From: a phage
Assembly: GCA_033664045.1 (NCBI GenBank)
Contig: GCA_033664045.1_3674.1
Strand: one strand, 5' to 3'
DNA length: 64,000 bases
In this document: one piece after another, positions 7,027-48,468 of the stretch
Layout of the letters: every line of letters begins with the position of its first letter
Position numbering within the stretch: position 1 is the stretch's first letter
Notes under the pieces: model-generated
What the model was told of the DNA's origin: nothing
The model's database searches: none
The model's input: only the letters and a program-made list of their open reading frames with translations
Made by a program: the position numbers and the translations under genes

Positions 7027-7364
7027 GTTTGTGGAGAAATATAGTTAACTACGTGTGCGGCAATCCAACTCCTGAAGAGAAGGATGTTGTGATTCACGAT
7101 TTTACTAAAAGATCTCGTGAAAAAGATCTACTGCTAACAAAGGTGACTGATAAAGATCCTGCAGTAGGGGACTGGGCAGGTTTTGCGTTTACATCGGACA
7201 AATACACCTTTAACAAAGGTGACTACCTTGTTGTAGATTTTAACGAAGACATCGAGGGTGCTGAACCTTACTATCAGACCCTTATTGTTGCAGGGTGTGT
7301 TGATCTCTCTGCAGGCATGCACAGTTTGATTCTTTTTGAGCTTGACTCTGAAGACCTTGAGTAG
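7023..7364 (+). CDS. hypothetical protein
   Basis: ORF overlapping upstream stop by 4 nt, co-directional. Confidence 0.5.
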   Translation: MSLWRNIVNYVCGNPTPEEKDVVIHDFTKRSREKDLLLTKVTDKDPAVGDWAGFAFTSDKYTFNKGDYLVVDFNEDIEGAEPYYQTLIVAGCVDLSAGMHSLILFELDSEDLE

Positions 7365-7424
7365 TAAGATGTGAGTATAAAGGGGAGGCACTCCTCCCCA
7401 CAAAAACTAAGGAAGCACTAAACG

Positions 7425-7727
7425 ATGAAACGTTATAAACCATACACTTTTGAAATCGATTTCGAACTTGACGATATGTTTACTGTAGAAGCTCAGGCAG
7501 TTGTCCAGTTGCCAGACCCGGAGTGCCGTGATTCTGATGTTGACTATTACGGATTTAGACAAATTACCGATGTGCATGTTTACCACAACGGTGAAGAGGT
7601 GGACTTCCACCAACTGCCAAACGATTTGCGACACTCAATTTACAAACGTGCAGCCCGTGAACTAGAGTCCTATCTGGATGCAGCGACGACAGCAGCTGCA
7701 TTTGCTGAAGAAGTGGGAGGTTTCTGA
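7425..7727 (+). CDS. hypothetical protein
   Basis: ORF preceded by GC hairpin ggggaggcactcctcccc and RBS AGGAAG. Confidence 0.5.
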   Translation: MKRYKPYTFEIDFELDDMFTVEAQAVVQLPDPECRDSDVDYYGFRQITDVHVYHNGEEVDFHQLPNDLRHSIYKRAARELESYLDAATTAAAFAEEVGGF

Positions 7728-8125
7728 TGATTACAGGTGTGAAGATTATCCAATACCACTTAACCAAATTGGAAGATGCTGAAAAAGAGCTTGCAGAAGT
7801 TCTGAATAGTGGATATACTTTACTATCATGCGCCTGCTCAGACACCTACGTTGTGTGGACACTTATCCGGAAGGAAGAGCCTGCGGGGATCTTGGTGCCA
7901 AACCCTAAGATCCTTAGTGAGGTGGATGACTACGCTCAGGACGGCCTGCCAGAAGGCTGGGAAGTATGGGAAGGTGGTGAAAACCCTGCACCAGGTAAGT
8001 GGGTAAAATACAAACTACGTAGCGGTGCGCAGTACGCTGACTACTCTGATGACCTAGACTGGAGTCATTCTTCACCAGGATCGTCTGCAAGTTCATATGA
8101 TATCGTTGCTTTTCAGGAAGAATAA
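7727..8125 (+). CDS. hypothetical protein
   Basis: ATGA overlap with upstream gene. Confidence 0.5.
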   Translation: MITGVKIIQYHLTKLEDAEKELAEVLNSGYTLLSCACSDTYVVWTLIRKEEPAGILVPNPKILSEVDDYAQDGLPEGWEVWEGGENPAPGKWVKYKLRSGAQYADYSDDLDWSHSSPGSSASSYDIVAFQEE

Positions 8126-8137
8126 GGAGATAGTGTT

Positions 8138-8620
8138 ATGTCAGATTTTATGTGGAAAGTAGGTTACGCAGCTCCTGAAATGTGTGAGGCTTGCTTTGTG
8201 AAAATAGGCCGCGAGGATATCGACAAAGTGATCCTTAAGTTTCGTGATGTAGCTGTGATCGGCAACCGAGTGCTTAAGCACTTAAAGAATCTGAAGCTCA
8301 CCAAAAAGAAGTTCTTCGGACTTTTCGAAGAGAAAGTTGATGCTTGGACCCATTGCATTCAGGAAGCTAAATCTCACTACAGTGCTATCGTTACCCCAGA
8401 ACGGGTAGCCAAGATGGAAGGACTCATCAACAGCACAGAGTTTGAGTGCCTAAAGGCTGCCCTTGATAGTTATCCGAAATGCCTCAAGCACTTGGACAAG
8501 TATGTGGAAAAGGATGGGGAAATGTATCTCACCCTGGACGCATATTATGAGATGCAAGAAATTTTAAATTTAGATTTGACATTGGTATCCACCGAGTATA
8601 CAATAGGTATCCGGGTTTAA
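8138..8620 (+). CDS. hypothetical protein
   Basis: RBS AAGGAGA upstream; followed by intrinsic terminator. Confidence 0.5.
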   Translation: MSDFMWKVGYAAPEMCEACFVKIGREDIDKVILKFRDVAVIGNRVLKHLKNLKLTKKKFFGLFEEKVDAWTHCIQEAKSHYSAIVTPERVAKMEGLINSTEFECLKAALDSYPKCLKHLDKYVEKDGEMYLTLDAYYEMQEILNLDLTLVSTEYTIGIRV

Positions 8621-8626
8621 CACTAG

Positions 8627-8654
8627 GCCCTGCCCGAAAGGGTGGGGCTTTTTG
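8627..8654 (+). terminator. rho-independent terminator
   Basis: hairpin gccctgcccgaaagggtggggc followed by TTTTTG. Confidence 0.6.
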
Positions 8655-8671
8655 CATTAGGAGACAGCAAA

Positions 8672-9433
8672 TTGAAATTTATCTACAAAGAACACTACCA
8701 CAAAGGTGTTGTGTGGAGTCTATTTGACGGGTCTGGTGGTGCAGTCATTGACTGGGCAAAAGCTGGATATCTGTGCCTGTGCTTTAATGCAGAAGGTGCT
8801 GATCACGGCAGCTATGCAGAGGTGATAACCGATCATCCCAACATTCACTACGTGGATTATTGGATTGACCCATGGTTCCCTCAGGAAACTTTTTGCATGT
8901 ACCCAGCTCCAGACTTTATTCTTGCATTTCCTCCGTGCACGCATTTAGCGGTATCAGGTGCCGCACATTTTAAGAAAAAGCTGGCTAAGGACCCCATGAT
9001 CCAAATTAATGCTGTAAAGGATGCTCGGGTTGCGGAAGAACTGGGAGAGATTTACGATTGCCCGTGGCATGTAGAGAATCCTGTTGGTGTTATGTCCACA
9101 CTGTGGCGCAAACCTGATTACCGTTTTCATCCTTCTGACTATGGCGGGTATTTACCGGAGGATGATGTAAACCCCTGGTTTCCTGAATTTATAGCTCCAC
9201 GTGATGCCTATCCAAAAATAACTTGCGGCTGGATAGGTAATGGATTTATAATCCCGGCCACAAAACCTGTCCCGCAAATAGTTGACGCGGTTAGCGGGTA
9301 TTCCATGCAACACGCCAAGCTGGGTGGAAAGAGTGCAAGAACGAAGATGATCCGAAGCCTTACACCACGTGGCTGGGCAAAAGCCGTATTCTTAGCAAAC
9401 GAGCCTGTAGTAAGGAGAAGGGCCAATGGTTGA
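8672..9433 (+). CDS. DNA (cytosine-5)-methyltransferase-like protein
   Basis: TTG start after AGGAG; C5-MTase-like motifs LFDGSGG (motif I), FPPCTHLAVSG (motif IV-like, PCT not PCQ), VENPVG (motif VI-like); short, no obvious TRD. Confidence 0.45.
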   Translation: MKFIYKEHYHKGVVWSLFDGSGGAVIDWAKAGYLCLCFNAEGADHGSYAEVITDHPNIHYVDYWIDPWFPQETFCMYPAPDFILAFPPCTHLAVSGAAHFKKKLAKDPMIQINAVKDARVAEELGEIYDCPWHVENPVGVMSTLWRKPDYRFHPSDYGGYLPEDDVNPWFPEFIAPRDAYPKITCGWIGNGFIIPATKPVPQIVDAVSGYSMQHAKLGGKSARTKMIRSLTPRGWAKAVFLANEPVVRRRANG

Positions 9434-10097
9434 CTGGAGCAAGTATTTCACCTACAGTGACGGCAAACTGTTCTGGGCGTACACTGCAAAAGCCGGAAGG
9501 GGCAGGGTTATACATTACGCAGGTGAGGAGGCCACAGGTACAGATAAAAATGGCTATAGAGTGATATATGTGTCAGGTGTTGGGAGTGTTCGTAGGCATA
9601 GAATAGTTTGGGAGATGCATTACGGGGAGATACCCGAAGGACTTGTTGTGCGGCACAAGAACGACATAGCAGGCGATGATAGGGTAGAGAACTTAGTCCT
9701 AGGTACACAGGGCGATAATGCACGAGACATGATCTACAGTGACAAACTGAGCATTAACAATACCTCAGGGTGTCGAGGTGTACGCTACCATAAAGGCATA
9801 AAAAGATGGATTGCATCTGTTGGAGACATATACTTAGGATGTTTTAAGACAAAAGAGGATGCAATTGCATGCAGAAAGTTATGGGAGAAGGGAAAATTCG
9901 TCCCGCAAGAGTTGGATGTTAGAAACACTAGCGGTGTAACAGGAGTGTTCTATGTGCCGAGCTCTGGAAGGTGGAGAGTAAGAGTGCAAAGCGGCAAAAA
10001 GAGAAAGAGCTATGGCACTTACAATACTTTAGAAGAAGCAAAAGCTGTAAGAGATAGAGTGATGAAAGAGATTGAGGAGTTTAAAGATGGGGAATAA
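9426..10097 (+). CDS. HNH homing endonuclease with AP2 DNA-binding repeats
   Basis: HNH core RRHRIVWEMHYGEIPEGLVVRHKNDIAGDDRVENL; two AP2-like repeats SGCRGVRYHKGIKRWIASV and SGVTGVFYVPSSGRWRVRV. Confidence 0.75.
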   Translation: MVDWSKYFTYSDGKLFWAYTAKAGRGRVIHYAGEEATGTDKNGYRVIYVSGVGSVRRHRIVWEMHYGEIPEGLVVRHKNDIAGDDRVENLVLGTQGDNARDMIYSDKLSINNTSGCRGVRYHKGIKRWIASVGDIYLGCFKTKEDAIACRKLWEKGKFVPQELDVRNTSGVTGVFYVPSSGRWRVRVQSGKKRKSYGTYNTLEEAKAVRDRVMKEIEEFKDGE

Positions 10098-12165
10098 GTT
10101 TATATCCTCTGCATATAGCCGCTATGGAGAACCCAACCCGGTTGCAACAAGATACAAAAGTGGGGGCAGTATGAAACGAGACTATCGTGATGAAAAAGAG
10201 GTTGAAACTGTAGAGACTGTTTTAGAAAATACTAAAATTGTCCCTGTTCCACAACAGAATATAGGGCTAATGGCTGCTCAATATTTTGGTGTGCGATCAG
10301 CATTATCCCAAGAAGATGGTGTGACAGTCACTGCAACATATTTTCCATATTATGACCGCTACGGAAATCTGTCTGGTTTCAAAAAACGTGATTGGTCTAA
10401 GCCGAAAGAGCAGAAAGGACACTGGTCTGTAGTAGGCATCGTAAAGGCTAACTCCCAGATGTTTGGTCAAAAGCTGTGTGCATCTTCCAACAACCGTAAG
10501 CAGATTAACGTTTGTGAGGGGGAAGGTGATGTTATTGCAGCATGGCAGGCTGCATATCAGATACAAGTAAAAGGGATTCTCACCAACGCTAAAGCCCCGG
10601 CAAAGGTGAAGCAGTGGGCTAAAGAGGTCCAAGACGGGATCGACGCAGTTATCAACGGTGGTGATCTGGCAGGAAAACCCTGCCTGCCTTTTGTTGGAAT
10701 TAACTGTGGATGTGCAAACGCAGTAGATACTTTTGCAAACAATGAGAAGTTTATCCGTAGCTATGGAACAGTTGTGCTGGCAATGGATAACGATGCAGCT
10801 AACGAGGTAGAGAAGCAAAAACACGTCATCAAAGGTGTTGAGGCCACGCACAATATCGCAGCATTTTTGATGGCTGATAACGTTTACCACGTAGAATACC
10901 CCGGTGAAGTAAACGACCCTGATGGTGTAAAAGATATCCGAGACATGCTGAAGGCTAAAAAGCTGGAAGATATTGTCAACATGTTCCGGCATCCTGTTAA
11001 ATATGTACCTGATGCTGTGTCGGATTTAGAAGACTTCTCTATCGAGTCTTTGCGGAAAAAGACTTCCAACGGGGTAGATATCAGTGCAGAGTTCCCAAAA
11101 CTGCAAAAAATGCTAAAAGGCTTGCACAAAGGGACACTCGTAATGCTTACAGGTCCATCAGGCGGCGGTAAAACAACCGTGGCTAAAAAACTGGAACACT
11201 GTATTGCAAGATACCTAATGGACCCGACATGCCCGAAGGCCGATGACTATGAAGAGGATGATCGTCTATGTATGATCCATCTTGAGGAGGATCCAGAGGA
11301 AGCAATTAACTCCTTGTATGCAAACCAGTTAGGGTTTGATGTTAAAGAGTTTGTTGAAGATCCTAGCCAGTTTTTAACTGATCAAGAACACGCAGAGATT
11401 CACCAATCATGGGCAAAAGCTGGAAAAATCAAAGTGTTCAAACATTTCGGGTCTATTCCGGTGGACGAGTTGATTACCAAGCTTAAGCAAATGGTTTGCC
11501 TGTACCATTGTCGTTATATTGTGCTGGATCACCTGTCCATGGTAATTTCAGGGCTTAATGTTAAGGATGAGCGAAAAGAACTGGACATGGCTATGACCCA
11601 ACTGGCTGCGTTTTGTAAGCAGTTTAACGTGTTTATCTTGGTGATCGCTCACCTCAAACGTACAGAGATTGTGCCTCCTAAAGACAAGGATGGTAACCCG
11701 TTACCTTTCTGGTATCCTGTGCGAAAAGAGAATTTGCGAGGATCGGCTGGGCTTGAACAGTTGAGTTGGGTAGTCATAGGTGTCGAGGCCGAAGAAATGG
11801 TGGATCGTTCTCGTGGGCGTGTCCGTTTAGTAGGTCTTAAAAACCGTCCAGCAAAAACATTGGGTATTGCAGACACTTTGGTTATGGACCCACATACAGG
11901 TAAGTTCCATGATGCCAGTAATTGGTACTGGGACAAAGAAATGCAAATGTTTACAGATGGAGAAGGTGGGGAGGTTGTTTGGAGACCTCAGGCTATGTTT
12001 GAGGATCAGGAGCATGCAGTTGTAGAAACACCTATGGGCAAGGTTGTGGCTGATAAGGTTGTAACTCCTACTGTTAAGCCTGTTGACACGCAGGAAGACC
12101 TCCAGTACGATGATCCGTCCTCTGACCATGTTCCTGGTTTTGAGGATGATGAAACACCTTTTTAA
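10087..12165 (+). CDS. primase-helicase (T7 gp4-like; Toprim + DnaB-family helicase)
   Basis: ATG at 10087 after GAGGAG (track start 10072 is TTG); Toprim EGEGD / AMDNDAANE; Walker A LTGPSGGGKTT; acidic C-terminus ending DDETPF. Confidence 0.85.
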   Translation: MGNKFISSAYSRYGEPNPVATRYKSGGSMKRDYRDEKEVETVETVLENTKIVPVPQQNIGLMAAQYFGVRSALSQEDGVTVTATYFPYYDRYGNLSGFKKRDWSKPKEQKGHWSVVGIVKANSQMFGQKLCASSNNRKQINVCEGEGDVIAAWQAAYQIQVKGILTNAKAPAKVKQWAKEVQDGIDAVINGGDLAGKPCLPFVGINCGCANAVDTFANNEKFIRSYGTVVLAMDNDAANEVEKQKHVIKGVEATHNIAAFLMADNVYHVEYPGEVNDPDGVKDIRDMLKAKKLEDIVNMFRHPVKYVPDAVSDLEDFSIESLRKKTSNGVDISAEFPKLQKMLKGLHKGTLVMLTGPSGGGKTTVAKKLEHCIARYLMDPTCPKADDYEEDDRLCMIHLEEDPEEAINSLYANQLGFDVKEFVEDPSQFLTDQEHAEIHQSWAKAGKIKVFKHFGSIPVDELITKLKQMVCLYHCRYIVLDHLSMVISGLNVKDERKELDMAMTQLAAFCKQFNVFILVIAHLKRTEIVPPKDKDGNPLPFWYPVRKENLRGSAGLEQLSWVVIGVEAEEMVDRSRGRVRLVGLKNRPAKTLGIADTLVMDPHTGKFHDASNWYWDKEMQMFTDGEGGEVVWRPQAMFEDQEHAVVETPMGKVVADKVVTPTVKPVDTQEDLQYDDPSSDHVPGFEDDETPF

Positions 12166-12223: not shown

Positions 12224-15001
12224 ATGAGTATGTATAGCTTCGATTTTGAGGCCTCTGGGCTTTTGGAAGATCCAGACCTTTATTATCACTGCGGCCTGTT
12301 TAAAGCGTTGAATAAGAACCGTTTTATGCTGTTCCTTCCTCTGAATGACCGCACACACTACTCCGAGGAGGATATAGAGAAGGCTAAGAACTTTATTCTG
12401 GCAAAGAAAACTCTTTATAAGGATTTTGAAGTTCGCATAGCAGATTTTTCGGAGTTGGAAGGGTGGCTTACAGGAAATTCTGACTGGTCACCCACAGCTT
12501 TGAACTGCCACAACTGCTACAGCTACGACTTTATGCTGATGGAGAGATTGTCCGGTATTCATTTTGATATGTTCCGTGATCCTAAGTGTATGGGGACTAT
12601 CAACGACCACCAGGTTAATCTGTTTGATACATTGGCTATGAGCCGAATTTTGTGGCCTGACCGACCTTTGCCAAAAGGTTGTCCAGACGCTGTATTCAAC
12701 CCGGTTACTAAGAAAATGCAGCCTGTTGGTCCTCACGGCCTTATGGCATGGGGCTACGCTCTTGGTAACCAGAAAGTTCAAATTGATGACTGGCGCGATC
12801 TTCCGTTGTGGAAGTATGTGGATCGTGTATTCGAGGACGTTATCATCCAGGAGCTGCTCTGGAAAGAGCTGGTAGCGGAATCAAAAGGTGTATTCTACGG
12901 CAAATCTGACATGCAGAACTTTATGTACGATCCTGCCAAAGAGAAGCCGAAAGGATTCAAGAAGATCACCTGGAAGAACGCATTACGTCGAGGCATGCTG
13001 CAGCACTTCCTGATGGAGCTGCAGGCCCGTCAGGGCGTATACTTCGACATAGATGGAGCTATTGCTTTACGTGACCGTTGCGATGCGTGGATGAAAGAAA
13101 TCGCTGATCGTGTTGAACCACAACTGCCTTTAAAAGAGCTGTCAATGTCTCAGCGGCCCAAGTTCCCTGAAAAGCCGTTTAACCAAGACGGGACAATCTC
13201 CAATAATGGTTGGAAATGGTTAAAAGATAAGCTTGGCTATCCTGTAGACATGAGCGCTTTAGAGTTCAAAGCCCCGCCTAAGAGAGCATTTACCTCTACA
13301 GGAGATGTCAGCAAGATGGGGATAAAATGGTGTGAAGAGATGGGATGCAAAGACCCCGATAAGATGGCTGATTTCTTGAGAGGCTATATTAAGGGCACTT
13401 CCACACCACACCCTTTGCCTAAAGAGCTGATGGATCAGGCAATAAGTGATCTACAGCAGAAGCGAATGCCGGACTGCAAGATACCTATGAAAATCAGCAA
13501 CCAGGACGACATTAAGCGATACCTGATCAGTGCTGGCTGGCTTCCGACAATGTGGAGAACTAAGGATGTAACTAAAGACAGCAAGAAGAAAGCTTTACCT
13601 GATGCAGATGTTGATGCACGAGTATATGCATATATGGACGAGCTTTTGGAGTCAGAGTATTGTGACCTAATTATCAACTTCTGGAACAAAACTGATGCTA
13701 AGTTCCAGACAACCGTGCACAAGTTCCGAAGCTTTCCTAACTCCGAAAGGATTAAAAAGGAAGTATTCGGGAAAATACGTAGAAAAGCTAGGGCACTTAT
13801 TACTTCTCCGCAACTGAAAGATACGTTTGGACACCTATGCCCAAATCTTGAAAAATTGAACGGAGAGATGGCTAAAGATATCGTCTTGTGGTTATCATTG
13901 CGAAACCGCAGATCGGTCCTTGATCCAATCAAGGAGGATAAGGTTGATACTGGTCTTCTTAATCACCCACGCTTGAAGATTGACCATAAGCTTCCTGCTA
14001 AAAGTTCTGGATTAACAAACACTTCCCGACAGAAACACAGTATTTGTGCAAACATGCCTAAACCATCTCCTAAAGTGGTTATGGGTAAAGAGATGCGTAG
14101 TCTGTGGGGTGTTCCTCCAGGATACTTTGAGATCGGTATTGACGGGTCCAACTTAGAGCAGCTTATCGGGGCTTGGGGTGCCTTTGAGTTCGACAACGGC
14201 TTGTATTATGATGTTGTAAGTAACGGGGACGCACACCAAAACAATGCTGAGGCATATACAAAAGTAGCAGGCAGAGAGGTGTCTCGTAACGACGGTAAAC
14301 CTATCACGTATGGGGTTATGTACGGGGCACAAAAAGATAAAGTTGCAGACATGCTGGATATCTCTCCAGAGTTGGGGCAAAGGGTAATCGATGCGCTTTG
14401 GGATGCCAACCCAGGTCTTAAGGGGCGTAAAGAGGATCTGGAGAAATTCTGGGAAGCAACTGGTAAGAAGTTTATCTACTCTTTTGATGGTCATGCCATC
14501 TGGACCCGATCTAAACACTCTTTACTTAATGCATACCAACAAAATGGCGGTGCATCGTTGTGTGATTTAGTTGGGATACTCATGCACCACCAAATGGTGA
14601 GGCGTGGGTGGTACGATGAAGGTGTTCGTCGTATTATCTATTACCATGACGAATATCAGCTTCAAGTACCTGACACACCGAAGTATAAGACTGTGTACAC
14701 CTTCGACACAATTGAAGAATTGGAAGCATTTAAGGCAGAGCAGGAGGCCAAACTTCATGTGTTCGACGGTCATAAGTACAAAAAGGCACGCAAGGATGAA
14801 AACGGAAACGAAGTGGTTGACAGAGACGGAAACACGGTGTACGATCCTATCTTGAACGATGACGGAAAGCTTGAACTTATCTGGAGTCCTGTGGGCGAAA
14901 TGGTGGTACATTGCTTCTGGCAAGCTTCTAAAATGATGGGAGTCCCGTTCCAGATCACAGGTGAATACTTGTGTGGTCGTAATTGGGGTGATTGTCACTA
15001 A
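12224..15001 (+). CDS. DNA polymerase, family A, with 3'-5' exonuclease domain
   Basis: Exo I FDFEASG; motif A IDGSNLEQL; motif B RNDGKPITYGVMYGAQ; motif C YYHDEYQLQV. Confidence 0.9.
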   Translation: MSMYSFDFEASGLLEDPDLYYHCGLFKALNKNRFMLFLPLNDRTHYSEEDIEKAKNFILAKKTLYKDFEVRIADFSELEGWLTGNSDWSPTALNCHNCYSYDFMLMERLSGIHFDMFRDPKCMGTINDHQVNLFDTLAMSRILWPDRPLPKGCPDAVFNPVTKKMQPVGPHGLMAWGYALGNQKVQIDDWRDLPLWKYVDRVFEDVIIQELLWKELVAESKGVFYGKSDMQNFMYDPAKEKPKGFKKITWKNALRRGMLQHFLMELQARQGVYFDIDGAIALRDRCDAWMKEIADRVEPQLPLKELSMSQRPKFPEKPFNQDGTISNNGWKWLKDKLGYPVDMSALEFKAPPKRAFTSTGDVSKMGIKWCEEMGCKDPDKMADFLRGYIKGTSTPHPLPKELMDQAISDLQQKRMPDCKIPMKISNQDDIKRYLISAGWLPTMWRTKDVTKDSKKKALPDADVDARVYAYMDELLESEYCDLIINFWNKTDAKFQTTVHKFRSFPNSERIKKEVFGKIRRKARALITSPQLKDTFGHLCPNLEKLNGEMAKDIVLWLSLRNRRSVLDPIKEDKVDTGLLNHPRLKIDHKLPAKSSGLTNTSRQKHSICANMPKPSPKVVMGKEMRSLWGVPPGYFEIGIDGSNLEQLIGAWGAFEFDNGLYYDVVSNGDAHQNNAEAYTKVAGREVSRNDGKPITYGVMYGAQKDKVADMLDISPELGQRVIDALWDANPGLKGRKEDLEKFWEATGKKFIYSFDGHAIWTRSKHSLLNAYQQNGGASLCDLVGILMHHQMVRRGWYDEGVRRIIYYHDEYQLQVPDTPKYKTVYTFDTIEELEAFKAEQEAKLHVFDGHKYKKARKDENGNEVVDRDGNTVYDPILNDDGKLELIWSPVGEMVVHCFWQASKMMGVPFQITGEYLCGRNWGDCH

Positions 15002-47653: not shown

Positions 47654-47968
47654 CTACCAAGTTACTGTCAAGTAGGCAACAGTGTTATTTTTCTCTGGAG
47701 AGATGCCAACAACATCTACCTGCAGACCTCCTGCCCTCAAATCCCCAACAATATGCGGGAAGTAATCTGAGAGATGCGAGGGTAGATTTATCGAAAATCC
47801 GCATCCCAGAAAGCCTGCTAACGCTTTATTTTGTATCTCCCCTACAATCGCATCATAAATGGAGTTAAGCTCGTCAGGGAGCGTTACAGGACGTTTTAGC
47901 GCTAACTGGTGTAATTTGTCCTTAGCACTCATTTTCATTTCAGGTCTACCTCTGGGGGTGCCAACCAC
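47654..47968 (-). CDS. hypothetical protein
   Basis: co-directional ORF. Confidence 0.45.
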   Translation of the reverse strand: MVGTPRGRPEMKMSAKDKLHQLALKRPVTLPDELNSIYDAIVGEIQNKALAGFLGCGFSINLPSHLSDYFPHIVGDLRAGGLQVDVVGISPEKNNTVAYLTVTW

Positions 47969-48468
47969 ATAAACGGCGGCAAGTCTAAACGGTTTTTCTT
48001 ATCCCACACAAAATATGCATATGCTTGCCCGTCAGTTCTGCCATTTGATTGAAATGATGGACGCTTAGATATTGTGATCACAGTGGTAGGTGCATTATCA
48101 AGCCACCATTCAAATCTGGCTTTGCTTTCCAGAAAATTAAGACGCAAAAGCATAATAACTACGTCAGCATCTTTCAACGCCTTGTCTACGAACTCACGAG
48201 CCAGACTGTACGGTGGGTTGGTGATAATACAGTCAACATGGTTGTATTCTGTATTCAGATAGTCAACACCTTCTTGGATTTCTCCCCATGCAGATCCTAA
48301 CGGCATACGGGAGTAGAACACACCTGAGGCACTATTCCTGCAAGGCTCTAAGTAGGTCCAGTCCTCTGGGAACGGAATAAGGTCATACAGCCCTTCTGCA
48401 CACCACTCCGGTGTCACATACTCATCGTATGCGTTACGTTGTTCATCAGGTTTTCTAGCACAAGTCAT
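47935..48468 (-). CDS. DNA N6-adenine methyltransferase (small phage Dam-like)
   Basis: catalytic motif IITNPPYSLA (NPPY) in a 177-aa protein. Confidence 0.65.
   Translation of the reverse strand: MTCARKPDEQRNAYDEYVTPEWCAEGLYDLIPFPEDWTYLEPCRNSASGVFYSRMPLGSAWGEIQEGVDYLNTEYNHVDCIITNPPYSLAREFVDKALKDADVVIMLLRLNFLESKARFEWWLDNAPTTVITISKRPSFQSNGRTDGQAYAYFVWDKKNRLDLPPFMWLAPPEVDLK

What the first reader, a model, noticed from the sequence alone, without database searches (positions are those of the whole stretch)
8672..9433. Short C5-methyltransferase-like protein with a non-canonical PCT catalytic motif
The product has C5-MTase-like motif I (LFDGSGG), a motif IV-like segment FPPCTHLAVSG (Thr where Gln is expected) and ENV-like VENPVG, but is only about 250 aa with no obvious target-recognition domain. 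It could be a minimal cytosine methyltransferase, a base-hypermodification enzyme, or an inactive methyltransferase-like binder. The adjacent HNH endonuclease may be related to its mobility.
Basis: partly seen in the sequence, partly recalled or inferred. Interest (0 to 1): 0.55.

Follow-up and report, generated by a model that had tools for sequence, protein, structure and literature searches.

The report
Compact phage DNA cytosine-C5 methyltransferase
This gene encodes an unusually small but ordinary, already annotated phage DNA cytosine methyltransferase of an rV5-like E. coli phage; a relative from another phage has been shown to make 5-methylcytosine, so the odd "PCT" motif is a family trait and not a sign of new chemistry.

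Summary
Window 8672-9433 (+) is a 253-aa ORF with a TTG start and an AGGAGA ribosome-binding site, and it carries LFDGSGG, FPPCTHLAVSG and VENPVG. The window is a Vequintavirus (rV5-like) genome. The same gene (99.6% identical) is annotated in GenBank as "Dcm-like C5 cytosine methyltransferase".

It belongs to a large, uniformly compact (about 200-260 aa) phage and prophage family, PHROG 757. That family has 2047 clusters at 50% identity and occurs in 1506 of 50,697 phage records. Cys89, Glu135 and Pro137 are invariant in it, and Thr after the Cys is at least 90% conserved.

The protein is 54% identical over its full length to the KarlJaspers Dcm. A close relative of that gene, in phage K42, was shown by LC-MS to put 5mC on retron Ec86 msDNA, dependent on a quadruple mutant that includes the aligned Cys and Glu.

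The sequence specificity of the window enzyme is not established. CCWGG is only inferred.

The HNH gene is an independent homing endonuclease, present in 4 of 117 relatives.

Verdict: real, functional, already known, low interest.

The parts
8672..9433 (+). CDS of the compact DNA cytosine-C5 methyltransferase (253 aa, TTG start)
   Evidence: PHROG 757 E=5.6e-87; 99.6% identical to EmilHeitz bas49_0074, 'Dcm-like C5 cytosine methyltransferase'; C5-MTase fold
8659..8664 (+). Ribosome-binding site AGGAGA, 7 nt before the TTG start
   Evidence: read directly from the sequence
8720..8740 (+). Motif I (LFDGSGG, residues 17-23), the SAM-binding glycine-rich loop
   Evidence: aligned to motif I of M.HaeIII and DNMT3B
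8927..8959 (+). Motif IV (FPPCTHLAVSG, residues 86-96); catalytic Cys89 is codon 8936-8938
   Evidence: Cys invariant and Thr at least 90% conserved in 41 diverse relatives; aligned to PCN of DNMT3B and PCQ of E. coli Dcm; equivalent to C82 of the K42/KarlJaspers Dcm
9071..9088 (+). Motif VI (VENPVG, residues 134-139); Glu135 is codon 9074-9076
   Evidence: E135 and P137 invariant; equivalent to E128 of the K42 Dcm
9209..9226 (+). YPKITC (residues 180-185), the probable motif VIII equivalent; Lys182 is nearly invariant
   Evidence: K182 aligns with K175 of the K42 Dcm, one of four residues mutated together in the dead quadruple mutant, whereas K176 is Ile183 here. The assignment to motif VIII is an inference.
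9353..9373 (+). RSLTPRG (residues 228-234), a conserved C-terminal block and probable motif IX/X region
   Evidence: R228, S229, T231, P232 and G234 are nearly invariant; the functional assignment is inferred
8625..8650 (+). GC-rich hairpin followed by a T-run, probably the terminator of the upstream gene or a leader
8576..8604 (+). Sigma-70-like promoter match (TTGACA-17-TACAAT, 11 of 12) just upstream of the hairpin
   Evidence: a consensus match only, and its function is not shown
9426..10097 (+). Free-standing HNH-AP2 homing endonuclease gene. It is a separate mobile insertion and not part of the methyltransferase.
   Evidence: HNH_3 E=5e-17 and AP2 E=5.8e-11; present in 4 of 117 related phages; clean insertion relative to MaxBurger; the first 90 nt of the primase gene are 74% identical against about 97% further on

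Best explanation
The gene encodes an active, SAM-dependent, orphan DNA cytosine-C5 methyltransferase. It belongs to a compact phage-specific family (PHROG 757) and is expressed with the replication genes of an rV5-like phage.

Proposed mechanism, by analogy with established C5-MTase chemistry:
- The flipped-out target cytosine is attacked at C6 by Cys89 of motif IV.
- Glu135 of motif VI contacts N3/N4.
- The methyl group of SAM, bound by motif I and the Asn39 position, is transferred to C5.
- Beta-elimination then releases the enzyme.

The enzyme has only about 38 residues between the motif VIII-like strand and the C-terminal block. DNA recognition must therefore rest on short conserved loops and possibly on oligomerisation.

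The likely biological role is self-methylation of replicating phage DNA at a specific short site. That site is probably CCWGG, as proposed for the K42 homologue, which would protect against EcoRII-type restriction. The cost is that such enzymes can trigger retron Ec86/Eco1.

Shown here: the ORF, the motifs, the conservation, the fold, and homology to the characterised enzyme. Taken from the literature: 5mC formation by the homologue. Inferred: activity of this particular protein, its target site and its biological role.
For: - PHROG 757 matches at E=5.6e-87.
- The near-identical gene is annotated as a Dcm-like C5-MTase.
- The AF2 model has pLDDT 88.5 and pTM 0.88.
- Foldseek against the PDB gives DNMT3A/B at E about 1e-6.
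- 17 of 28 relatives hit PF00145, and 3 of them pass the gathering score.
- C89, E135 and P137 are invariant across 41 relatives that are 30-54% identical to the query.
- The protein is 54% identical over 235 aligned residues (nearly the whole protein), E=2e-86, to KarlJaspers bas06_0055, with C82, E128 and K175 aligned to C89, E135 and K182.
- The K42 orthologue of that gene gave high 5mC on msDNA by LC-MS, which was lost in the C82A/E128A/K175A/K176A mutant.
- Purifying selection: 29 nucleotide changes but only 2 amino-acid changes.
- CCWGG is not avoided in the window: 129 observed against 151 expected from a Markov model and 78 from base composition.
- The gene sits in a replication module between a helicase and the primase/polymerase.
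- The prophage copy in E. coli has no adjacent restriction enzyme.
Against: - The protein itself has no Pfam or NCBIfam hit.
- Sequence similarity to solved C5-MTases is marginal, E 0.4-1.
- There is no QxRxR motif VIII and no recognisable GN(A/S)V motif X.
- The second Lys mutated in K42 (K176) is Ile here.
- No methylation data exist for this phage or genus in the literature I could search.
- Specificity for CCWGG is not demonstrated even for K42. It was assumed by analogy with host Dcm and supported only by msDNA site mutants.
- Those experiments were done in MG1655. From my own knowledge this strain is dcm+, and its own Dcm evidently did not trigger the retron. That hints at a different site, a different substrate form, or a difference in expression level.
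- hhalign against E. coli Dcm aligns only motif IV, with probability 0.4%.
Confidence: 0.85

Rival explanations
1. It is an active C5-MTase, but its target is not CCWGG. It might recognise another short site, or prefer hairpin or single-stranded DNA. 'Dcm-like' would then be a misnomer for its specificity.
For: There is no detectable similarity to E. coli Dcm outside motif IV. It is only 54% identical to the K42 enzyme, and the putative recognition region (residues 190-227) is the least conserved and lowest-pLDDT part. In the K42 study, host Dcm in MG1655 did not give high msDNA methylation or trigger the retron.
Against: Mutating either C of CCTGG in the msDNA abolished Ec86 defence against K42. 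CCWGG is abundant and not avoided in the window. The hosts of most carriers are enterobacteria, where, from my own knowledge, CCWGG-specific restriction-modification is common.
Confidence: 0.4
2. It is a cytosine-C5 transferase that uses another cofactor, for example carboxy-SAM as CmoX does. It would install a handle for hypermodification rather than a methyl group.
Confidence: 0.04
3. It is a catalytically inactive methyltransferase-like DNA binder or regulator.
For: It has no large recognition domain, a weak TTG start, and no Pfam hit.
Against: The catalytic Cys and Glu and the motif I loop are conserved across about 2000 clusters. The gene is under purifying selection. The homologue is active, and its activity depends on a quadruple mutant that includes the aligned residues.
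Confidence: 0.04
4. It is an RNA (tRNA) m5C methyltransferase of the DNMT2 type rather than a DNA enzyme.
Confidence: 0.03

Closest known systems
Dcm of phage K42 / KarlJaspers (Bas06 gene bas06_0055), the trigger of retron Ec86 (Eco1); bioRxiv 10.1101/2023.08.16.553469
   Same: They belong to the same family and have the same compact architecture (236 vs 253 aa). They are 54% identical end to end, E=2e-86. The catalytic Cys, the Glu and the first Lys align. The K42 enzyme is experimentally linked to 5mC formation on DNA.
   Different: The phage lineage differs: Drexlerviridae siphovirus versus Vequintavirus myovirus. The second mutated Lys (K176) is Ile183 here. The region 190-227 differs, and the window protein has 7 extra N-terminal and about 10 extra C-terminal residues. 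Nothing has been tested for the Vequintavirus protein, and whether it also triggers Ec86 is unknown.
DNMT3A/DNMT3B catalytic domains (eukaryotic de novo C5-MTases)
   Different: Identity is only 13-16%. The window protein has no regulatory domains. Whether the phage enzyme dimerises as DNMT3 does is unknown. The target is not CpG as far as anyone knows.
Canonical bacterial C5-MTases (Pfam PF00145: M.HhaI, M.HaeIII, E. coli Dcm)
   Different: This protein is below Pfam detection. It has Thr instead of Gln after Cys and ENP instead of ENV. It has no QxRxR and no large target-recognition domain: 253 aa against 324-472 aa for the bacterial enzymes (M.HaeIII chain length, M.HhaI, E. coli Dcm). There is no detectable similarity to E. 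coli Dcm beyond motif IV.
CmoX, the phage DNA cytosine C5-carboxymethyltransferase (PDB 8yf3; PMC12783734)
   Different: CmoX is 333 aa, has SPPC plus Arg350 for the carboxyl group, and is linked to CmoA and CmoY. None of these features was found here.

Membership tests
DNA cytosine-C5 methyltransferase superfamily (PF00145-type) | Class I SAM-MTase fold of the C5-MTase type | tested here: met
DNA cytosine-C5 methyltransferase superfamily (PF00145-type) | Motif I glycine-rich SAM loop (FxGxG) | tested here: met
   LFDGSGG at residues 17-23 aligns to M.HaeIII SLFSGAGG and DNMT3B SLFDGIATG. In distant relatives the loop is looser, D-x-T/S-G.
DNA cytosine-C5 methyltransferase superfamily (PF00145-type) | Motif IV Pro-Cys catalytic dipeptide | tested here: met
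   P88-C89. The Cys is invariant in 41 diverse relatives and aligns to the PC of DNMT3B and Dcm.
DNA cytosine-C5 methyltransferase superfamily (PF00145-type) | Gln after Pro-Cys (PCQ) | tested here: not met
   The residue is Thr90, at least 90% conserved in the family. This is not an essential feature, because active DNMT3B has Asn at the aligned position.
DNA cytosine-C5 methyltransferase superfamily (PF00145-type) | Motif VI Glu-Asn-Val | tested here: met
   E135-N136-P137. Glu and Pro are invariant and Asn is at least 90% conserved. Val is replaced by Pro.
DNA cytosine-C5 methyltransferase superfamily (PF00145-type) | Motif VIII Arg pair (QxRxR) contacting the target cytosine | tested here: inconclusive
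   There is no QxRxR. The nearly invariant Y180-x-K182-x-T184 precedes a beta strand. K182 aligns with K175 of the K42 enzyme, which its authors took to be substrate-binding. No residue-level structural superposition was available.
DNA cytosine-C5 methyltransferase superfamily (PF00145-type) | Sizeable target-recognition domain between motifs VIII and IX | tested here: not met
   Only about 38 residues (190-227) lie between the motif VIII-like strand and the RSLTPRG block. The whole family is 200-260 aa.
DNA cytosine-C5 methyltransferase superfamily (PF00145-type) | Score above the Pfam PF00145 gathering threshold | tested here: not met
   There is no PF00145 hit for this protein. 17 of 28 relatives hit it weakly. 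Three pass at 24.7-28.5 bits against a cut-off of 22, on profile positions 4-94 only.
DNA cytosine-C5 methyltransferase superfamily (PF00145-type) | SAM-dependent formation of 5-methylcytosine in DNA | not testable with these tools
   This was shown by LC-MS for the K42 homologue, not for this protein.
Compact phage Dcm-like methyltransferase family (PHROG 757) | Full-length match to the family profile | tested here: met
   E=5.6e-87 over residues 2-251.
Compact phage Dcm-like methyltransferase family (PHROG 757) | Single-domain protein of about 200-260 aa with the FPPCT / ENP / YxK.T.xW / RSxTPRG signature | tested here: met
   All the blocks are present. The length distribution of 150 representatives is.
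Compact phage Dcm-like methyltransferase family (PHROG 757) | Homology to the experimentally characterised member (K42/KarlJaspers Dcm) | tested here: met
   54% identity over 235 residues, E=2e-86. The gene is identified by its 711-bp length and its annotation.
E. coli Dcm / M.EcoRII-type CCWGG methyltransferases | Sequence similarity to Dcm, including its recognition domain | tested here: not met
   hhalign of the family profile against E. coli K-12 Dcm gives probability 0.4%, with only 25 columns around motif IV aligned.
E. coli Dcm / M.EcoRII-type CCWGG methyltransferases | Methylation of the inner C of CCWGG | not testable with these tools
   There is only indirect support, from K42 msDNA site mutants and from the lack of CCWGG avoidance in the window.
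CmoX carboxymethyltransferases | SPPC motif, Arg350 carboxyl contact, and linkage to CmoA/CmoY | tested here: not met
   Motif IV is FPPC. No CmoA or ligase is annotated within 6 kb in the near-identical phage. The criteria come from PMC12783734. The equivalent of Arg350 was not examined structurally.

The most novel reading that the evidence does not exclude
The PHROG 757 family may be the smallest natural DNA C5-methyltransferase architecture. It may recognise its site without a target-recognition domain, for example by DNMT3-like dimerisation or by reading hairpin or single-stranded DNA. Its specificity or substrate form may differ from host Dcm. That would explain why the phage enzyme, and not the host's own Dcm, activates retron Ec86 in a dcm+ host. 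The Vequintavirus branch (Lys-Ile instead of Lys-Lys, and a divergent 190-227 loop) could have yet another specificity.
Probability: 0.25. Interest if true: 0.5.

Novelty: already known. Interest (0 to 1): 0.2.

Why it matters
For genome annotation this matters little. The gene is already labelled a Dcm-like C5 cytosine methyltransferase in near-identical phages, and a family member has been characterised.

Its residual value has three parts.
- The family is very widespread, in about 3% of deposited phage genomes, yet its sequence specificity and mode of DNA recognition without a recognition domain have not been determined, as far as the searchable literature shows.
- A family member is a known activator of retron Ec86/Eco1. 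Its presence may therefore predict the sensitivity of rV5-like therapeutic phages to that defence.
- A C5-MTase of about 230 aa could be a useful minimal scaffold for engineering.

Tried and rejected
- Pfam, NCBIfam and a PDB sequence search with the single protein gave nothing significant. A family profile against the PDB was still marginal, E 0.4. Homology to C5-MTases had to be established through the fold and through relatives that hit PF00145.
- Profile comparison with E. coli Dcm showed no Dcm-specific similarity. I therefore do not file the protein as a Dcm/EcoRII-type enzyme.
- Literature searches for methylome or restriction-digest data on rV5-like phages found nothing specific. The peer-reviewed version of the Ec86 paper is cited by others but is not held in the library.
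- Oligonucleotide counts show no CCWGG avoidance. This is only weak, indirect evidence about specificity.
- I could not do a residue-level superposition on M.HhaI or DNMT3A, or a dimer prediction, with the tools available.

Full report
**What is in the sequence**

Window 8672-9433 (+) is an open reading frame of 253 codons. The mechanical ORF list starts it at GTG 8642. That codon lies inside a GC-rich hairpin with a T-run (8625-8650). The TTG at 8672 is preceded at 7 nt by AGGAGA (8659-8664), and GenBank annotators of near-identical phages chose the same 762-nt CDS.

- LFDGSGG, residues 17-23.
- FPPCTHLAVSG, residues 86-96, with Cys89 at nt 8936-8938.
- VENPVG, residues 134-139, with Glu135 at nt 9074-9076.

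**Where the window comes from**

The region is 95-97% identical at the DNA level to rV5-like E. coli myoviruses of the genus Vequintavirus, such as Phage 203/206, EmilHeitz (Bas49) and HeinrichReichert. In EmilHeitz the same gene (99.6% identical protein) is annotated 'Dcm-like C5 cytosine methyltransferase'. It lies in a replication module in this order: rIIA/B, helicase, small ORFs, methyltransferase, homing endonuclease, primase/helicase, DNA polymerase. Other records call it 'DNA methyltransferase', 'putative C-5 cytosine DNA methylase' or 'hypothetical protein'.

**Family**

The protein has no Pfam or NCBIfam hit of its own. It matches PHROG 757 'DNA methyltransferase' over its whole length at E=5.6e-87.

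The family is large:
- 3553 homologues in the 90% clustered protein collection.
- 2047 clusters at 50% identity with E<=1e-3, and 205 with E<=1e-30.
- tblastn matches in 1506 of 50,697 phage records. These cover Vequintavirinae, phi92-like phages, Drexlerviridae, Dhillonvirus, Klebsiella Webervirus-type siphoviruses, and Salmonella and Vibrio phages.

Almost all members are 200-260 aa, so compactness is a property of the family and not a truncation.

In E. coli chromosomes the gene sits in the nin region of a lambdoid prophage, next to Dam, NinG, RusA and the Q antiterminator, with no restriction enzyme beside it. That makes it an orphan methyltransferase.

**Conservation**

In 28 close relatives and 41 distant ones (30-54% identity to the query), Cys89, Gly96, Glu135, Pro137, Pro154, Tyr180, Trp187 and Pro195 are invariant. 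Phe86, Pro87, Thr90, Asn136, Lys182, Thr184 and the block R228-S-x-T-P-x-G234 are at least 90% conserved.

The 'non-canonical' Thr after Pro-Cys is thus the family signature (FPPCTD/H). Against phage MaxBurger the gene shows 29 nucleotide differences but only 2 amino-acid differences in its first 720 nt, which indicates purifying selection.

**Relation to C5-methyltransferases**

At the sequence level the link is thin but consistent.
- M.HaeIII motif I aligns at E=1.
- A family profile aligns motif I and motif IV to DNMT3B at E=0.4. There, PCT-DLA lines up with PCN-DLS of DNMT3B.
- 17 of 28 relatives hit PF00145, and three exceed its gathering score on profile positions 4-94.

At the fold level the link is clear.
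- The AlphaFold2 model built from the family alignment has pLDDT 88.5 and pTM 0.88.
- Foldseek gives DNMT3A/B at E about 1e-6.

Because DNMT3B is an active enzyme with Asn in place of Gln, the Thr is no argument against catalysis.

What is really unusual is the lack of a recognition domain. Only about 38 poorly conserved, lower-confidence residues (190-227) separate the motif VIII-like strand from the conserved C-terminal block. A QxRxR motif is absent. A nearly invariant Lys182 may substitute for it, but that is an inference.

**Experimental anchor from the literature**

A bioRxiv paper on retron Ec86 (10.1101/2023.08.16.553469) studied phage K42, a 95% relative of KarlJaspers/Bas06. It reports the following:
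- Escape mutants disrupted a 711-bp 'dcm' gene.
- Expression of that gene was toxic only in the presence of the retron.
- msDNA from cells expressing it carried high 5mC by LC-MS.
- A C82A/E128A/K175A/K176A mutant was inactive.
- Mutating the CCTGG site of the msDNA abolished defence.

I located the 711-bp gene in KarlJaspers (bas06_0055). Its product is 54% identical to the window protein over the full length, E=2e-86. C82, E128 and K175 align to C89, E135 and K182, and K176 aligns to Ile183. A later paper restates that Eco1 is activated by msDNA methylation by a phage cytosine methyltransferase.

The window protein is therefore a member of a family with a demonstrated 5mC-forming enzyme.

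**What remains uncertain**

The target sequence has not been determined. In the K42 work, CCWGG was assumed by analogy with host Dcm. The experiments were done in MG1655, which from my own knowledge is dcm+. The empty-vector control nevertheless showed low msDNA methylation.

The family profile has no similarity to E. coli Dcm beyond motif IV (hhalign probability 0.4%).

In the window, CCWGG is frequent: 129 sites against 151 expected from a Markov model and 78 from base composition. The site is therefore not avoided. That fits protection by methylation but proves nothing.

I found no methylome or digestion data for rV5-like phages.

**Alternatives**

- CmoX candidates are defined by SPPC plus Arg350 and by linkage to CmoA and an amide ligase, none of which is seen here.
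- The homologue's product was 5mC.
- Vequintavirinae are reported as 'exceptionally susceptible' to restriction-modification systems, which argues against global or bulky cytosine modification.

An inactive binder is unlikely, given the invariant catalytic residues and the purifying selection. An RNA m5C role is unlikely because DNA enzymes score higher than DNMT2 and the homologue acts on DNA.

**The HNH gene**

ORF 9426-10097 has HNH_3 (E=5e-17) and AP2 domains, as phage homing endonucleases typically do. Only 4 of 117 related records contain it. The other 113 align in two pieces covering about 70% of the query.

Alignment with MaxBurger shows a clean insertion between the methyltransferase stop and the primase start. 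It changes only the last few methyltransferase codons (RRRANG* against RSRINGK*). It is followed by a locally divergent stretch: the first 90 nt of the primase gene are 74% identical, against about 97% further downstream. That pattern is typical of a homing-endonuclease target or co-conversion tract.

The HNH gene is therefore an independent selfish element and not part of the methyltransferase's biology.

**Verdict**

The finding is real, and the 'minimal cytosine methyltransferase' reading is right. However, the gene is already annotated as such, its family has an experimentally characterised member, and the PCT motif is a family trait also seen in variant form in DNMT3. Novelty: already known. 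Interest: low (0.2). The only open and moderately interesting questions are how such a small enzyme recognises its site and what that site is in the Vequintavirus branch.

Noticed in passing
window 7364-7425 (compare L005:1084-2409 and L001:4375-5409): Related Vequintavirus phages (MaxBurger, EmilHeitz) carry a 1.0-1.3 kb 'putative N6 adenine methyltransferase' gene between the small ORF after the helicase and the next ORF. In the window this gene is cleanly absent. The same upstream hairpin and RBS are joined directly to the ATG of the following gene.
   Followed up: partly
window 47935-48468 (-): A second small putative DNA methyltransferase of 177 aa with an NPPY motif. It matches PHROG 799 'DNA methyltransferase' at E=8e-67, with weak hits to the Pfam Dam and EcoRI_methylase families. 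The phage probably also modifies adenine or N4-cytosine.
   Followed up: partly
window 10087-10176: The first about 90 nt of the primase/helicase gene, directly 3' of the HNH insertion, are only 74% identical to the HNH-less relative MaxBurger, against about 97% further downstream. Several amino-acid changes result. This looks like a homing-endonuclease recognition-site or co-conversion tract.
   Followed up: partly
window 8576-8650: A near-consensus sigma-70-like promoter (TTGACA-17-TACAAT, 11 of 12) lies inside the 3' end of the upstream ORF and immediately before a terminator-like hairpin that precedes the methyltransferase RBS. A promoter followed by a terminator-like leader and a TTG start might keep methyltransferase expression low. 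This was not tested.
   Followed up: no
window 8000-10200, database matches: 16 GenBank records named 'Campylobacter phage' (host C. jejuni, mostly unannotated, such as MG065644 and MG065690) are 96-97% identical to this E. coli rV5-like region. Their host assignment looks doubtful.
   Followed up: no
window 12224-15001 (compare L001:10222-13841): In EmilHeitz the DNA polymerase CDS is annotated as joined from two pieces, with a homing endonuclease gene inside. In the window the polymerase is one uninterrupted 925-aa ORF. Homing-endonuclease content therefore varies between these near-identical phages.
   Followed up: partly
BFVD matches A0A6J5SE15 and A0A6J5NPY6 (not in the window): Structural matches to the compact methyltransferase also occur as one domain of very large (1126-1397 aa) uncultured-phage proteins, one of them annotated with a helicase/UvrB N-terminal domain. 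This suggests that the module is sometimes fused to DNA-translocating proteins.
   Followed up: no
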